From contig CAKPMB010000002.1 of the NCBI GenBank assembly GCA_934167885.1, positions 9,307 to 73,306 on the forward strand: 64,000 nt of DNA, given 5' to 3'. This DNA comes from an uncultured Bacilli bacterium (lineage in GTDB: Bacteria > Bacillota_I > Bacilli_A > RF39 > UBA660). The notes beneath the pieces were generated by a model. It saw only the letters and a program-made list of their open reading frames with translations. It ran no database searches and was not told the origin of the DNA. Of this stretch, positions 48,841 to 53,005 are shown piece by piece (the stretch's first letter is position 1; the number at the start of each line of letters is the position of its first letter). A program made the position numbers and the translations under genes.

Positions 48841-50097
48841 TTAAATAAGTTCTATATCATCATCCTTCTTGGTAGTCTTAGATTTCTTTGCCACCTTTTT
48901 AAGGTTATTATCTTTTTCTTTTAATTGTAATATAAGTAAGACAACCATTGCGATAATTAAAATAATAATCAAAATAATTAACAACGTTTTATTATACTTA
49001 ACTGTTTCTTTTGAGGCGCTATCTTTCACTACTTTTAAACTATATGTTTTAGAAAGACCATTTTCATGTTTAACAACGATCGAAACAACACTACCATCCG
49101 TTAAATTTTCATTATCAACTACTTCATACTCAGTATCATCATTTGGTGTAATAATAAGGGATAACTTACTAGGAATTTCTGGAAATTTTAAAGTATAATC
49201 ATATTTTTTAGGATTAAAAGATAGCGAACATCCACGCACTTCAAGTTTTTTTAAATTTAATATTGATTCATCAATATCCTCTAATCTTTTTACTTTAATA
49301 ACGTATTCATCAGTTACATTCTCATTAGTTACTTTAATTCTTATTTCATTGTCACCAACAATGAATGATTCGGGATTAATAATTTCTACCTTAGCAGTTT
49401 TAGCATTCGCCAACGCTTCTATTTTAGTGTTATTAATTCGATATGGAACAACCACATTATATTCATATTTAGACGATGAAAATTCCAAATCAATATCACT
49501 CAATGTTAGACTTTTAAGTGTTGTATCAGGTTTATTTTTTCTTTTGATGTTTAAAGTCCAATTCTTTTTAGTGCCATCAGGCGCAGTCACTAAATATTGA
49601 ATCTGCTTACTGCTACTATCGATAGGAAACGCAACTTCAAGTGGTGAACACTTAGCGTTTTTATCATTAGGAACACCTACTATTTCAATTGTTTCTGCAT
49701 CGAATAAAACATCAAAACTATAAACGTAAACATCTTTAATTAATTCAACTTCTTCACCATTAATTTTAAGTGAAGACAAAGTATAATCACTAGAAGGAAC
49801 ATACTTAACAATTTTTATATAATAATTAGCCGGCGTGCCATCTTCTAAAATCATGCTTATATTCACTGTCGTATCAGATGTAAGCTCTATTTGATGACCA
49901 CTATCAGGAGATGCTGATTTAACATTATCACTAAGCTTATATTTAATAGTTGCAACCTTCGCATCAACTAAAACTTCACAATTATATCCACTACATTTAA
50001 CTTCTTGATTATTTACGGTCAATTCTTCAAACTCAGATGCATAAACATTTGTGACAAAACACATAAATAACAAAAATAAAAAACCAAATTTCTTCAT
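48841..50097 (-). CDS. secreted, C-terminally anchored protein with cadherin-like beta-sandwich repeats
   Basis: Signal peptide MKKFGFLFLLFMCFVTNVYAS; repeated YTLSSLKINGEEV / TTLKSLTLSDIDLEF...YEYNVVVP modules; C-terminal TM helix LLIILIIILIIAMVVLLIL plus basic tail; start set at the Met with an AGGATGG RBS. Confidence 0.5.
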   Translation of the reverse strand: MKKFGFLFLLFMCFVTNVYASEFEELTVNNQEVKCSGYNCEVLVDAKVATIKYKLSDNVKSASPDSGHQIELTSDTTVNISMILEDGTPANYYIKIVKYVPSSDYTLSSLKINGEEVELIKDVYVYSFDVLFDAETIEIVGVPNDKNAKCSPLEVAFPIDSSSKQIQYLVTAPDGTKKNWTLNIKRKNKPDTTLKSLTLSDIDLEFSSSKYEYNVVVPYRINNTKIEALANAKTAKVEIINPESFIVGDNEIRIKVTNENVTDEYVIKVKRLEDIDESILNLKKLEVRGCSLSFNPKKYDYTLKFPEIPSKLSLIITPNDDTEYEVVDNENLTDGSVVSIVVKHENGLSKTYSLKVVKDSASKETVKYNKTLLIILIIILIIAMVVLLILQLKEKDNNLKKVAKKSKTTKKDDDIELI

Positions 50098-50304
50098 ATC
50101 ATCCATCCTACAAAAGAAATTATAACATTTTAGTAAAATTTTGTCTATATCCACCATATTCAATGTAAATGTGCAAAAAAACTAATTAACTCTATAAGCT
50201 AACAAAACATAAAAATGATATTGAAATTTATTACAGAAAAAAAGCACAATATGTAATTTATTAAAATTTATCTAAAAATTATCCTTTAAGTAGTTGAATT
50301 TAAA

Positions 50305-50340
50305 AAGTCTAATAAGCAAAATTATGTACTTATTAGACTT
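50305..50340 (-). terminator. 12-bp hairpin terminator immediately after the NUDIX gene (aagtctaataag/cttattagactt)
   Basis: Perfect 12-bp stem, 12-nt loop, T-runs on both sides; marks the lower boundary of the accessory operon. Confidence 0.55.
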
Positions 50341-50343
50341 TTT

Positions 50344-50790
50344 TTAATTAAATTTATACCCTAATTTTTCTAACTCCATTATAGCGATAGGAGATAATTC
50401 CTTTTTAGATAATTTATCAATATCAAAAAACTCTGCACCAAGTGAATCGTCATTCACTTCATCCACTTTTACTTCATTCTTAATTTCATTATTGTAATTT
50501 GAAACTTTAAAGAAAATACCAGTATGATGTACCTTCACTAAAACATCTTCCTTAAATTGCCATTCAAAAGCAACAGAATCGGCATCAAATAATTGACAAT
50601 CAACTACCTCTATGCCAACTTCTTCCATTAGCTCTCTTTTCAAAGCATCTTCTGGTCTTTCACAGAACTCTATTGTACCACCAGGTAAATCTAGTTTTCC
50701 ATCATAAGGACCTCCAAATTTTTTAATAAGTAAAATTTTACCGCCTTGAATAACTAAACCATAAGCACCTAATTGTTTAAAATCTTTCAT
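50344..50790 (-). CDS. NUDIX hydrolase
   Basis: Nudix box LPGGTIEFCERPEDALKRELMEEVGIEV; 148 aa; about 80 nt gap after the radical-SAM gene. Confidence 0.7.
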   Translation of the reverse strand: MKDFKQLGAYGLVIQGGKILLIKKFGGPYDGKLDLPGGTIEFCERPEDALKRELMEEVGIEVVDCQLFDADSVAFEWQFKEDVLVKVHHTGIFFKVSNYNNEIKNEVKVDEVNDDSLGAEFFDIDKLSKKELSPIAIMELEKLGYKFN

Positions 50791-50872
50791 CTATCCTTTC
50801 TCACTTTCTTATTTTTATTTTTTAAACTAATATAGTTATAGCATTATTTTAACTTAATTATATTAGTAAAAA

Positions 50873-52018
50873 CTACTTTTTCTTTCTTAAAACATATCCA
50901 TCGATTTCTTTATCGTTTTTATGATAACCTTCCCAGTCAAACTCTGTTATACTTTCAGCACAATAGTTGCAAAATGGAGTGAAATTATTTAACTTTTTTA
51001 TAGCATCCCAACCACTAGATATTTCTGATAATTCTATATAATCATCTCTTGAAACAACATAATTTGTACCATATCTTTTATTTAAAATTTCTATCAATAA
51101 AGGGTAATAACATTTTGCTATTTTTCCATCTCTCAAAAATCTACAAAATCTTCCAATACATTCTTTACTTACTTTATCGCCTGCGTTATTATTTTCTAAT
51201 GTTAATCTAGTTTGAAATTTTTTTATTGGTTCAATCGGACTAAAGAAATCATCATTTATCAAATATGTGATTTTATTAGCATTTAATATATTTAATATTT
51301 TGTCTATTTTTTTGTTTGTAGGTTCATATAAAGAAATAGATATTATTATATCATTATCTACAAATGATTTAATTACTTTCTTATCTAGCTTATCTAACAA
51401 TAAACCATTTGATACTACTACAATTTTGGTTTTTGGTAGTATTCTCCTTGAAATATTTAATAATTCCGAAAAACTAGGATGTAATAATGGTTCTCCTCCT
51501 AAAATTCTAAAGTAATAGACATTAAATTTTTGCGATATTAATTTTATATCACGTTCATAATCAACCAAATCAACATAATTATTATCATAAATATTCGAAA
51601 AATGAGCACATCCTTTACAATTTAAATTGCAATGATCAACAACATTTGTTTCTAAATAATTTAAAAATGGTAATGATAAATCAATTGAATCTATATAACT
51701 ATTTAATTGTTCATAAGATTCCGAATTAGAATATAATACTCTTTCATCAACAATATTTATTTTCTTAAAACCAACATTTTTTAAATACTCAATTGTATCA
51801 CCCATGATAATTGGCTTTTTTGTTATAAATATATTATCATTTTCAGGATTTAAACATTTCTCATTTAAAAAGATAATAGGAATATCTTTATATAGTTTCT
51901 GTGATATATCTGATTTATTTTCCAATTTAAGAAAACCATCAACTATGATATTGTGTTTTTCTAATTTTTTTGCAAACCCTATAGCAAAAGGTCCTGTTCC
52001 AAATATATAATTCTTCAT
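50873..52018 (-). CDS. radical SAM enzyme with N-terminal Rossmann-like extension and C-terminal auxiliary Cys cluster (SPASM/twitch-like)
   Basis: GxGxxA dinucleotide-type motif FGTGPFAIG at residues 6-14; CNLNCKGC (CxxxCxxC) at about residue 130; C-terminal CIGRFC...C and CNYC; RBS AAAGGAGAA 7 nt before the ATG; starts 12 nt after the kinase stop. Confidence 0.7.
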   Translation of the reverse strand: MKNYIFGTGPFAIGFAKKLEKHNIIVDGFLKLENKSDISQKLYKDIPIIFLNEKCLNPENDNIFITKKPIIMGDTIEYLKNVGFKKINIVDERVLYSNSESYEQLNSYIDSIDLSLPFLNYLETNVVDHCNLNCKGCAHFSNIYDNNYVDLVDYERDIKLISQKFNVYYFRILGGEPLLHPSFSELLNISRRILPKTKIVVVSNGLLLDKLDKKVIKSFVDNDIIISISLYEPTNKKIDKILNILNANKITYLINDDFFSPIEPIKKFQTRLTLENNNAGDKVSKECIGRFCRFLRDGKIAKCYYPLLIEILNKRYGTNYVVSRDDYIELSEISSGWDAIKKLNNFTPFCNYCAESITEFDWEGYHKNDKEIDGYVLRKKK

Positions 52019-52030
52019 AAGTTTTCTCCT

Positions 52031-53005
52031 TTATTTTTTTACAAGTTGCAAATATGACATTCTTGAATCCAAATTTTCATACATCCAATCAAATCTTCCA
52101 TATTGTTTTAATTCACAATCAACTATCATTTTTAAAATAACATACATACGATATATTTCAATTCTAACTTTTTCATCATAATTTAACTTTTTATTATCAA
52201 AGCCTTTCAAATAATAATCACTTGTTATTCCATCAATGGTATGAAAATAAAATGTCATCAATTCATCACAGAAATACAAATCTGAAAAATCAACAATTCC
52301 AGCAACTTTTCCATCTTTTATTAGAACATTTCCATCCCATATATCAGTATGTGCTAAACAAAGATTGGAAATGTTATTTAAACTTTCTTTATTTGATATT
52401 ATTATATTTTTAATATTGTCATAATTATTTTTTCCGAGATTAATATTTTTAGATTTAGCATTTTCTAATAAAAGTTCAAATAAATTCATTGTGAATTCAT
52501 AATTATTTTTAAATTTTTTATTTGGTTGACTTGGTAGAAAAAATTCTTGTCCTTTTATGGAACACATTCTTTTACTTAATATTCCTAATTGATACTCAAC
52601 ATTATTTTTTTCTTCTTTGCTCATCCTTTCTTTTATTTCTAAATAATTCGTGCCATCAACATAACTCATAAAAATATATGGTGATTCACATAACGAACAA
52701 CTGTCATCATAGCATAATAACCTTGGAGATGGGAAGTCAATTTTTTCCATTAATTTTAACATTTCAACTTCCCACCAAAGTATATTTCTATCTGCGATTA
52801 TCATTTTACTTTCATCTTTTGGTGCTATTTTTAATACTACCTTATTGCCATTATTTTCTATTAAATATACAGCATTTTTCATTCCACCACTTAATATTGT
52901 TATTTTAATATTATCAGTATCAATATCATTAAATAATTTTTCGTACATAGCTTTAATATTAGATATATTTTGATAATTCTTAACCGAAGATTTATTTCCA
53001 TTCAT
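52031..53005 (-). CDS. aminoglycoside-phosphotransferase-fold (APH / choline-kinase-like) small-molecule kinase
   Basis: Catalytic loop LAHTDIWDGNVL (HxDxxxxN) and GIVDFSD (DFG-equivalent); Brenner-like ILSGGMKNAVY nucleotide loop; start placed at the Met with a GAGG RBS, overlapping the GT gene end by 14 nt (an alternative start lies further upstream). Confidence 0.6.
   Translation of the reverse strand: MNGNKSSVKNYQNISNIKAMYEKLFNDIDTDNIKITILSGGMKNAVYLIENNGNKVVLKIAPKDESKMIIADRNILWWEVEMLKLMEKIDFPSPRLLCYDDSCSLCESPYIFMSYVDGTNYLEIKERMSKEEKNNVEYQLGILSKRMCSIKGQEFFLPSQPNKKFKNNYEFTMNLFELLLENAKSKNINLGKNNYDNIKNIIISNKESLNNISNLCLAHTDIWDGNVLIKDGKVAGIVDFSDLYFCDELMTFYFHTIDGITSDYYLKGFDNKKLNYDEKVRIEIYRMYVILKMIVDCELKQYGRFDWMYENLDSRMSYLQLVKK

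What the first reader, a model, noticed from the sequence alone, without database searches (positions are those of the whole stretch)
50873..52018. Radical-SAM protein with an unusual architecture: Rossmann-like GxGxxA head + CxxxCxxC + C-terminal Cys cluster
The canonical CNLNCKGC motif sits about 130 residues into the protein. It is preceded by a domain that begins FGTGPFAIGFAKKL, which is a dinucleotide-binding-type glycine motif like Gfo/Idh/MocA or CoA-binding N-domains. It is followed by CIGRFCRFLRDGKIAKC...FCNYC, consistent with a SPASM/twitch-like auxiliary Fe-S domain. SPASM/twitch radical-SAM enzymes outside RiPP maturation include sugar/aminocyclitol dehydrogenases (BtrN-type) and sulfatase maturases. 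A fusion to a Rossmann-like head is uncommon. Together with the neighbouring kinase and GT, it suggests radical-mediated oxidation or epimerisation of a sugar or nucleotide-sugar substrate. No precursor-peptide-like small ORF is evident nearby, which argues against a RiPP role.
Basis: seen in the sequence. Interest (0 to 1): 0.6.

Follow-up and report, generated by a model that had tools for sequence, protein, structure and literature searches.

The report
Head-bearing twitch radical-SAM sugar enzyme
This gene encodes an uncharacterised but widespread radical-SAM enzyme whose catalytic half is clearly related to the sugar dehydrogenase SpeY, carries an extra N-terminal domain of the kind that holds nucleotide-sugars in other enzymes, and sits in a compact, apparently mobile sugar- and nucleotide-handling gene cassette of gut bacteria.

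Summary
ORF 50873-52018 (minus strand, 381 aa) has three parts.

- **Head (residues 1-115):** a small half-Rossmann domain of the PglD_N / CoA_binding / C2185-like_N type.
- **Core:** a radical-SAM core with CNLNCKGC at residues 130-137 and a GGE motif.
- **Tail:** a C-terminal twitch domain. C287, C303, C350 and C353 are invariant in 257 relatives, and C292 is kept in 96%.

C292 aligns with Ser183 of SpeY. More distant SpeY relatives have Cys there. I recall this as the hydrogen-donor position of the epimerase HygY, but could not check it. I therefore favour sugar epimerisation over dehydrogenation.

The head is not rare. The family holds about 2,000 50%-identity clusters, and most top hits carry the head.

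The gene lies in a syntenic four-gene cassette: a P-loop/GT2/NDK-like fusion, an APH-type kinase, the rSAM, and a MutT-like NUDIX. Distant relatives sit in flagellin and polysaccharide glycosylation clusters. I found no RiPP, B12 or SPASM features.

Verdict: a new variant of a known kind, of moderate interest. The substrate is unknown.

The parts
50873..52018 (-). Whole gene: head + radical-SAM core + twitch domain, 381 aa plus the stop codon at 50873-50875
   Evidence: ORF listing. RBS AGGAGA lies 6 nt before the ATG. The AF2 model has pLDDT 93 and pTM 0.91.
51674..52018 (-). N-terminal head, residues 1-115: a half-Rossmann domain of the PglD_N / CoA_binding / C2185-like_N type, with GTGPFA at residues 7-12
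51233..51673 (-). Radical-SAM core, residues 116-262
51608..51631 (-). CX3CX2C motif CNLNCKGC (C130, C134, C137), ligands of the SAM-binding [4Fe-4S] cluster
   Evidence: Translation. C130 and C137 are invariant and C134 is Cys in 256 of 257 relatives.
51491..51499 (-). GGE motif (G174-G175-E176), the SAM-binding element of rSAM cores
   Evidence: 100% conserved in 257 relatives. That this motif binds SAM is established knowledge of the superfamily.
50876..51232 (-). C-terminal twitch domain, residues 263-381
51110..51160 (-). Hairpin Cys motif C287-x4-C292-x5-G298-x4-C303. C287 and C303 are predicted auxiliary-cluster ligands. C292 is the candidate hydrogen-atom donor.
   Evidence: C287 and C303 are 100% conserved; C292 and G298 are each kept in 246 of 257. 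C292 aligns with Ser183 of SpeY, and with Cys in more distant SpeY relatives.
50960..50971 (-). CNYC (C350, C353), the predicted remaining auxiliary-cluster ligands
   Evidence: C350 is invariant and C353 is Cys in 256 of 257. The motif aligns with CRNC of SpeY.
52034..53005 (-). Upstream operon partner: an APH / fructosamine-kinase-family kinase. The longest ORF is 52031-53089; the likely start is M29 at 53005.
   Evidence: Pfam APH at E 2.3e-16. Syntenic in every locus where the rSAM is at least 45% identical, apart from the truncated remnant L015.
52992..55001 (-). Upstream operon partner: a three-module fusion of a P-loop CoaE/AAA_18-like domain (about residues 17-175), GT2 (about 180-420) and an NDK-like C-terminal domain (about 500-669)
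50344..50790 (-). Downstream operon partner: a MutT-like NUDIX hydrolase
   Evidence: Pfam NUDIX at E 1.3e-13. The nearest solved relatives are MutT, MTH1 and NudI. Syntenic.

Best explanation
The gene encodes a three-domain radical-SAM enzyme of the SpeY/HygY type, that is, a twitch enzyme that modifies sugars.

**Predicted cofactors and binding (from conservation and fold):**
- The CX3CX2C cluster (C130, C134, C137) and the GGE motif bind SAM and cleave it to the 5'-deoxyadenosyl radical.
- A single auxiliary [4Fe-4S] cluster in the C-terminal twitch domain is held by C287, C303, C350 and C353.

**Inferred steps:**
- The PglD_N-like head caps the barrel and holds the nucleotide handle of a nucleotide-linked sugar substrate.
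- The radical abstracts a hydrogen from one sugar carbon.
- The substrate radical is then quenched from the opposite face by the thiol of C292, giving net epimerisation. The auxiliary cluster helps to re-reduce the thiyl radical.
- The product is a rare sugar that feeds the adjacent GT2 in a small cassette. The cassette also contains a P-loop kinase-like module, an NDK-like module, an APH-type kinase and a MutT-like NUDIX.

The architecture is close to certain. The stated confidence applies to the whole statement, including the epimerase chemistry and the nucleotide-linked substrate.
For: **Architecture**
- Pfam Radical_SAM and Fer4_12 match the core.
- The AF2 model has pLDDT 93.
- The A1 profile hits SpeY at E 7e-20.
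- hhalign of the family against the SpeY family gives Prob 100 and E 3e-51, covering the core and the whole tail.

**One auxiliary cluster**
- Four tail Cys are conserved in essentially all 257 members. They align with the four SpeY Cys.
- There is no SPASM hit.

**Epimerase lead**
- C292 is kept in 96% of the family.
- It aligns with Ser183 of the dehydrogenase SpeY. The SpeY clade has Ser or Ala there, while relatives at 49% identity or less have Cys.
- The HygY paper's title, cited in PMC10991966, states that mutating a single Cys turns that twitch epimerase into a dehydrogenase. NeoN likewise uses a Cys hydrogen donor.

**Nucleotide-linked substrate**
- The head belongs to the PglD_N / CoA_binding / C2185-like_N group.
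- The four-gene cassette is strictly syntenic down to 45% rSAM identity.
- A split-gene version exists at 36-37% identity.
- A GT2-head-rSAM fusion protein exists (P0199).
- Distant relatives sit among DegT, NDP-sugar epimerase, NeuB, CMP-transferase, LicD and GT genes.
Against: - No substrate is identified and nothing was assayed.
- The HygY residue number (C183) is my recollection. Neither the HygY nor the SpeY paper could be read, and no HygY sequence was aligned.
- The 36-37% subfamily with the same cassette type has Phe at the C292 position, so the thiol is not universal.
- I could not measure Cys-to-active-site distances, because model coordinates are not exposed.
- The window protein's own head has no significant Pfam hit, and it lacks the acidic residue after strand 2 that distant homologues have (GFLK against GF[IV]D).
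- No nucleotidyltransferase is present in the cassette to make an NDP-sugar.
- The NUDIX looks MutT-like (NTP-directed) rather than NDP-sugar-directed.
Confidence: 0.45

Rival explanations
1. It is a twitch dehydrogenase like SpeY or BtrN. After hydrogen abstraction, the substrate radical is oxidised through the auxiliary cluster to a keto-sugar. C292 is structural or a fifth, exchangeable cluster ligand.
For: The closest solved structure is a dehydrogenase, SpeY. BtrN-type oxidation through a fully Cys-ligated auxiliary cluster is the reference twitch chemistry (PMC9012708). The L018-L022 subfamily lacks C292.
Against: C292 is conserved in 96% of the family, whereas the SpeY dehydrogenase clade has specifically lost it. 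No aminotransferase or reductase that would use a keto-sugar is in the cassette.
Confidence: 0.2
2. The substrate is a nucleotide itself (NMP, NDP or NTP) rather than an NDP-sugar. The cassette would make or salvage a modified nucleotide: the APH kinase, P-loop and NDK-like modules phosphorylate it stepwise, the rSAM alters the ribose, and the MutT-like NUDIX removes a toxic triphosphate. It could be a mobile antimetabolite or defence module.
For: The cassette has three phosphotransfer-type modules and a MutT/NudI-like NUDIX. Relatives carry a PnuC/SWEET-clan Imp-YgjV membrane protein. The cassette is 94-97% identical across species-level genomes whose flanks do not align, and it lies next to transposase and integrase fragments. 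Weak pVip core hits were found.
Confidence: 0.12
3. The enzyme acts on a sugar already built into a lipid-linked or polymeric glycan. The head would be a docking or oligomerisation module shared by the glycan-tailoring enzymes of these clusters, not a nucleotide binder.
For: The same C2185-like_N head occurs on GT2s, methyltransferases and DUF5672 proteins in related clusters. HygY, SpeY and NeoN all act on assembled pseudo-oligosaccharides rather than NDP-sugars (my knowledge of those pathways). The window head lacks the acidic residue after strand 2.
Against: PglD_N-type domains contribute to NDP-sugar binding in PglD and VioB (my knowledge). The cassette is rich in nucleotide-handling modules.
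Confidence: 0.12
4. It is a cobalamin-dependent (class B-like) radical-SAM enzyme, with the Rossmann-like head binding B12.
Against: No B12-binding Pfam hit was found in any of 39 members. The head's specific matches are PglD_N, CoA_binding and 3nkl. The class B matches align 144-162 residues, which corresponds to the barrel rather than the head. The catalytic half is homologous to the B12-free SpeY family at E 3e-51.
Confidence: 0.02
5. It is a RiPP maturase acting on a small precursor peptide.
Against: No PqqD/RRE domain or SPASM domain is present. The intergenic gaps hold only 20-23 aa hydrophobic ORFs, two of them outside the conserved block. The conserved neighbours are a GT, kinases and a NUDIX.
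Confidence: 0.02

Closest known systems
SpeY (PDB 7WZV/7WZX/7X0B), the twitch radical-SAM dehydrogenase of spectinomycin biosynthesis
   Different: SpeY is about 300 aa and has no N-terminal head. Sequence identity is 18%. SpeY has Ser183 where this family has Cys292. SpeY belongs to actinomycete antibiotic clusters, not to glycan cassettes of gut Bacillota.
HygY (hygromycin B) and NeoN (neomycin), radical-SAM sugar epimerases that use a Cys hydrogen donor
   Same: The proposed chemistry is the same: hydrogen abstraction from a sugar carbon, then return of a hydrogen from a Cys thiol on the other face. Mutating a single Cys in HygY unmasks dehydrogenase activity (paper title cited in PMC10991966). 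NeoN uses Cys249 as its donor.
   Different: Neither sequence was available to align here, so the equivalence of C292 to the HygY Cys rests on SpeY numbering plus my recollection. Both enzymes act on aminoglycoside intermediates and have no head domain.
BtrN (PDB 4M7T), the founding twitch dehydrogenase
   Same: It has an rSAM core plus one fully Cys-ligated auxiliary cluster, held by a hairpin and a later CxxC (PMC9012708).
PglD / VioB / NeuD-type N-terminal domains (Pfam PglD_N, CoA_binding, C2185-like_N) and 3NKL
   Same: The head has the same small parallel-sheet fold, with a G-x-G-x-x-G/A loop after strand 1 and GF[ILV]D after strand 2 in many family members.
   Different: In those proteins the domain is joined to a left-handed beta-helix acetyltransferase or an SDR. 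Here it is joined to a radical-SAM barrel. The window copy is too diverged for a direct Pfam hit.
Class B (cobalamin-dependent) radical-SAM enzymes
   Same: The layout is analogous: a Rossmann-type domain N-terminal to the rSAM barrel.
   Different: The head here shows no B12-binding signature, and the catalytic half is homologous to a B12-free family.

Membership tests
Radical SAM superfamily | CX3CX2C motif that binds the SAM-cleaving [4Fe-4S] cluster | tested here: met
   CNLNCKGC at residues 130-137. C130 and C137 are invariant and C134 is Cys in 256 of 257 relatives. Pfam PF04055 scores 50.4 bits against a cut-off of 29.5.
Radical SAM superfamily | GGE SAM-binding motif and a partial TIM-barrel core | tested here: met
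   [not shown]
Radical SAM superfamily | Reductive cleavage of SAM to 5'-deoxyadenosine | not testable with these tools
   This needs an anaerobic enzyme assay.
Twitch-domain rSAM enzymes | A C-terminal domain that opens with a beta-hairpin carrying Cys...Gly-x4-Cys | tested here: met
   C292-x5-G298-x4-C303, with predicted strands at 294-296 and 299-301.
Twitch-domain rSAM enzymes | Exactly one auxiliary [4Fe-4S] cluster | tested here: inconclusive
   Four essentially invariant tail Cys, plus one at 96%, fit one cluster and align with SpeY's four. Cluster content can only be shown by spectroscopy.
SPASM-domain rSAM enzymes | Seven-Cys motif including CX2CX5CX3C, with two auxiliary clusters; matches PF13186 / TIGR04085 | tested here: not met
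   Only CxxC follows the hairpin. No SPASM or TIGR04085 hit at E <= 0.1.
SpeY/HygY-type twitch sugar epimerases and dehydrogenases | Homology across the core plus the whole tail | tested here: met
   [not shown]
SpeY/HygY-type twitch sugar epimerases and dehydrogenases | Cys (epimerase) or Ser/Ala (dehydrogenase) at the SpeY-183 position | tested here: met
   C292 aligns with SpeY S183. The SpeY clade has S or A there, and relatives at 49% identity or less have C. That this is HygY's catalytic Cys is recalled, not tested.
SpeY/HygY-type twitch sugar epimerases and dehydrogenases | Aminoglycoside or aminocyclitol substrate in an antibiotic gene cluster | tested here: not met
   The neighbours are GT2, kinases and a NUDIX in gut Bacilli MAGs. 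No aminocyclitol genes are present.
PglD_N / CoA_binding / C2185-like_N head domains | Match to the Pfam models above their gathering scores | tested here: inconclusive
   The window protein gives no hit. Aligned homologues do: P0060 scores 31.9 bits on PglD_N (cut-off 23.4) and 25.9 bits on CoA_binding (cut-off 22.3). Five of 39 members hit CoA_binding.
PglD_N / CoA_binding / C2185-like_N head domains | Three-layer parallel-sheet fold with a Gly-rich loop after strand 1 | tested here: met
   [not shown]
PglD_N / CoA_binding / C2185-like_N head domains | Binds the nucleotide part of an NDP-sugar | not testable with these tools
   This needs binding assays or a co-structure.
Class B cobalamin-dependent rSAM | N-terminal B12-binding domain (PF02310) | tested here: not met
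   No such hit in the query or in any of the 39 family members.
RiPP-maturing rSAM | Precursor peptide gene and an RRE/PqqD-like recognition domain | tested here: not met
   No RRE hit. Only 20-23 aa hydrophobic ORFs lie in the gaps.
Prokaryotic viperins (pVip) | Full-length match to the pVip / viperin models | tested here: not met
   [not shown]

The most novel reading that the evidence does not exclude
The four-gene block is a mobile unit that makes an unusual nucleotide-linked product. Examples would be an epimerised (arabino- or xylo-type) nucleotide, or a rare NDP-sugar made from the nucleotide side. In this reading the head-bearing rSAM works directly on a nucleotide held by its head. 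The APH, P-loop and NDK-like modules phosphorylate the substrate stepwise. The MutT-like NUDIX provides self-protection. GT2 attaches the product to the cell surface or to another acceptor. This would be a radical route to nucleotide or nucleotide-sugar epimers in gut bacteria that I do not know to have been described.
Probability: 0.15. Interest if true: 0.75.

Novelty: new variant of a known kind. Interest (0 to 1): 0.48.

Why it matters
As far as I know, the characterised twitch radical-SAM sugar epimerases and dehydrogenases (BtrN, NeoN, HygY, SpeY) all come from aminoglycoside-type antibiotic pathways. The evidence here points to a large uncharacterised sister family of about 2,000 50%-identity clusters. 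It occurs across Bacillota, Spirochaetes, Archaea and other groups, and sits in ordinary surface-glycan, flagellin-glycosylation and small mobile cassettes.

Many members carry a nucleotide-sugar-type head domain. If they are radical NDP-sugar epimerases, they would give an oxygen-independent and NAD-independent route to rare sugars at unactivated carbons. That would help to explain unassigned sugars in gut-microbe glycans and would supply new biocatalysts.

The C292/Ser183 contrast gives a one-residue, directly testable predictor of epimerase versus dehydrogenase outcome.

Tried and rejected
- **Single-sequence PDB searches.** Searching with the head alone and the tail alone gave nothing meaningful. 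Only profiles and structure gave signal.
- **afdb50 Foldseek** was unavailable, so no annotated AlphaFold neighbours were obtained.
- **Literature.** The SpeY and HygY papers are not in the held library. Searches for radical-SAM enzymes in flagellin or polysaccharide clusters found nothing relevant.
- **NDK-like domain.** There is no sequence-level support. The A2 profile gave no hits against the PDB. Only 14 mostly fragmentary homologues were found by the word-index search.
- **Defence-system reading.** PADLOC gave only generic-core pVip hits.
- **Phage or plasmid origin.** No real homologues were found.
- **Riboswitch or other RNA** in or around the operon: none at Rfam gathering scores.
- **Promoter and terminator scan.** Promoter-like sites were no more numerous than in shuffles, and no terminator passed the G+C filter.
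- **Kinase.** No solved relative was found by sequence. The P-loop module gave only a non-significant match to a dephospho-CoA kinase (2grj, E 0.18).
- **RiPP, class B and SPASM readings** were rejected for the reasons given in the membership table.

Full report
**1. The observation**

Its ATG lies six bases after an AGGAGA Shine-Dalgarno sequence. That sequence directly follows the stop codon of the upstream kinase gene.

All quoted motifs are present:
- FGTGPFAIGFAKKL at residues 6-19
- CNLNCKGC at residues 130-137
- CIGRFCRFLRDGKIAKC at residues 287-303
- FCNYC at residues 349-353

Pfam recognises only the middle part: Radical_SAM over residues 125-246 at E 3.6e-13, plus Fer4_12. Every NCBIfam hit covers the core only and falls far below its cut-off. 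The best is MoaA at 47 bits against a cut-off of 284. No curated family therefore describes the whole protein.

**2. Family and conservation**

The word-index search found 543 homologues. About 55 of them are full length at 42-93% identity, and almost none are named.

An exhaustive profile search gave 1,992 50%-identity clusters at E <= 1e-30. Of the 150 best, 126 match from within the first 30 profile positions, so they carry the head. This ranking is biased, because the profile was built from head-bearing sequences. Other members are 250-300 aa and start just before the CX3CX2C motif. The head is therefore modular.

In 257 members aligned to the family profile:
- C130, C137, G174, G175, E176, N204, Y231, C287, C303 and C350 are 100% conserved.
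- C134 and C353 are each kept in 256 of 257.
- C292 and G298 are each kept in 246 of 257.
- W362 is kept in 253 of 257.

**3. The catalytic half**

An AlphaFold2 model built from 39 sequences is confident: pLDDT 93, pTM 0.91.

| Comparison | Result |
|---|---|
| Foldseek, SpeY | E 3e-15 |
| Family profile against SpeY | E 7e-20 |
| hhalign, family against a SpeY-family alignment | Prob 100, E 3e-51 |

The hhalign match covers query residues about 115-381 against SpeY 1-285. The whole tail is therefore homologous, not only the core.

The column equivalences with SpeY are:
- C287 = C175
- G298 = G189
- C303 = C194
- C350/C353 = the CRNC of SpeY

The predicted hairpin (strands 294-296 and 299-301) carries the Cys...Gly-x4-Cys signature. 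Only a CxxC follows it, and no SPASM or TIGR04085 hit appears. This is a twitch domain with a site for one auxiliary cluster, not a SPASM domain. Background on twitch enzymes (BtrN with four Cys ligands, MoaA with three) comes from PMC9012708.

**4. The fifth cysteine**

C292 aligns with Ser183 of SpeY in native numbering (S203 in the tagged PDB chain).

I collected SpeY relatives and looked at this column. The SpeY clade, at 56% identity or more, has Ser or Ala there; it includes a protein named SpcY from a spectinomycin producer. Most relatives at 49% identity or less have Cys.

The literature I could reach adds two points through PMC10991966. NeoN epimerises through a Cys hydrogen donor. 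[quoted passage not shown]

I recall that residue as C183. That would be this exact column, but I could not read the paper or align HygY, so this step is an inference. On that basis I favour epimerisation over dehydrogenation.

One caveat applies. The 36-37% subfamily with the same cassette type has Phe at this position and an extra Cys in CxxCxxC.

**5. The head**

The window protein's own head gives no Pfam hit. Aligned homologues do:
- P0060 hits PglD_N at 31.9 bits (cut-off 23.4) and CoA_binding at 25.9 bits (cut-off 22.3).
- P0119 and P0256 hit PglD_N.
- Five of the 39 aligned members hit CoA_binding.
- Precomputed annotations list PF22674 (C2185-like_N) for several relatives.

The family profile reaches 3nkl, the small N-terminal domain of a UDP-sugar 4-dehydrogenase, at E 0.0033 over residues 2-91.

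Many distant members show G-x-G-x-x-G after strand 1 and GF[ILV]D after strand 2. The window copy has GTGPFA and GFLK.

No B12-binding signature appears in any member. From my own knowledge, PglD_N-type domains help to bind the nucleotide of NDP-sugars. That role for this head is inferred, not shown.

**6. Genomic context**

The gene is the third of four tightly packed minus-strand genes:

| Gene | Window coordinates |
|---|---|
| P-loop (CoaE/AAA_18-like) / GT2 / C-terminal domain fusion | 52992-55001 |
| APH / fructosamine-kinase-family kinase | 52031-53089 |
| Radical-SAM gene | 50873-52018 |
| NUDIX hydrolase | 50344-50790 |

This order is kept in every locus where the rSAM is at least 45% identical (L001-L005, L009-L014, L016, L017). 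The one exception is L015, a truncated remnant. Relatives often add an upstream GT2 and a downstream Imp-YgjV membrane protein.

A subfamily at 36-37% identity (L018-L022) has the fusion's three modules as separate genes directly after the rSAM:
- a 169-aa homologue of the C-terminal domain
- a 199-aa P-loop protein
- a 299-aa GT2

A NUDIX gene lies convergent to them.

One representative, P0199, is a GT2-head-rSAM fusion.

More distant head-bearing relatives sit in clear glycan clusters. One is beside flagellin with DegT, an epimerase, a methyltransferase, GT11 and GT6 genes. Others sit with NeuB, CMP-transferase, NDP-sugar enzymes and GT2s, with PglD-like, DegT, GT and Glyphos_transf genes, or with LicD, GDPD and GT2 genes. 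In these clusters GT2s and methyltransferases carry the same head.

No conserved small ORF exists in the gaps, and no Rfam element is present.

The host belongs to uncultured gut Bacilli / 'Tenericutes' MAGs such as UMGS1185.

**7. The neighbours**

The nearest solved relatives of the NUDIX are MutT, MTH1 and NudI nucleoside-triphosphate pyrophosphohydrolases.

The cassette therefore combines three phosphotransfer-type modules, a GT2, an NTP-type NUDIX and the rSAM. This points to a nucleotide-linked substrate but does not identify it. No nucleotidyltransferase is present.

**8. Mobility**

The block 50255-55029 is 94-97% identical at the DNA level in four other species-representative genomes. 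The flanks of those loci do not align with the window. Among the four loci themselves the match likewise ends at the cassette, except that L009 and L010 align with each other over about 7 kb.

In the window the block abuts an HTH transposase fragment and a weak integrase C-terminal fragment at 55108-56397. L015 holds a truncated remnant. No phage or plasmid homologues were found.

**9. Verdict**

The architecture claim is confirmed and sharpened. The protein is a PglD_N-like head joined to a SpeY/HygY-type twitch radical-SAM enzyme. The head fusion is common within a large unnamed family, so it is not rare. It is undescribed as far as the held literature shows.

The most likely function is radical epimerisation of a sugar carbon on a nucleotide-linked substrate that feeds the adjacent GT2. 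The rivals are:
- dehydrogenation, as in SpeY and BtrN
- direct action on a nucleotide
- action on an assembled glycan

I rate this a new variant of a known kind, with an interest score of about 0.5.

Noticed in passing
[not shown]
   Followed up: partly
window 50255-55029: The four-gene cassette is 94-97% identical in DNA to L009, L010, L013 and L017, which are separate species-representative genomes. Their flanks do not align with the window even with sensitive blastn, which suggests recent horizontal transfer of the block.
   Followed up: partly
window 55108-56397 (+): Directly upstream of the cassette lie an 84-aa ORF with only a transposase-type HTH (HTH_29/HTH_28) and a 97-aa ORF with a weak match to the C-terminal end of a phage integrase. 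These look like decayed mobile-element remnants. Relatives have a second GT2 gene at this position.
   Followed up: partly
L015 8001-9367: A relative holds only the 3' two-thirds of the rSAM gene (residues 103-381, about 86% identical) plus the NUDIX gene, with no kinase or GT fusion. This is a truncated remnant of the cassette.
   Followed up: no
window 54477-55001 (-): The Walker A loop of the fusion's P-loop module reads GNSKDGKL, with Leu where Ser or Thr is expected. The standalone version in L019 has the canonical GYGGTGKS. The fused copy may be impaired or non-catalytic.
   Followed up: no
P0067, P0135, P0136; P0199 (L089 512-2611): Some family members are fusions. Three are tandem double radical-SAM proteins of 667-698 aa, and one is a 699-aa GT2-head-rSAM-twitch protein followed by a second head-rSAM gene.
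   Followed up: partly
L008 2055-9275: A distant homologue sits in a LicD/GT2 cluster with a second head-less rSAM, a glycyl-radical enzyme with its activase, and a SPASM protein. That is an unusual concentration of radical enzymes for a glycan locus.
   Followed up: no
window 52992-53089: The longest kinase ORF (TTG at 53089) overlaps the end of the GT fusion by 98 bases. Relatives have a 327-331 aa kinase with a 4-14 base overlap, so the real start is probably M29 at 53005 or M10.
   Followed up: partly
window about 50304-50338: An A+T-rich perfect 11-bp inverted repeat (AGTCTAATAAG ... CTTATTAGACT) with T runs on both sides follows the NUDIX stop and coincides with the end of the conserved block. 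The terminator scan missed it because of its G+C filter.
   Followed up: no
window 56458-59088 (-) and 48841-50163 (-): The cassette is flanked by two putative surface proteins: an 876-aa low-complexity, Asn/Thr/Pro-rich protein with a C-terminal hydrophobic segment and no Pfam hit, and a 440-aa protein with cadherin-like beta-sandwich repeats. Neither is found next to the cassette in relatives.
   Followed up: no
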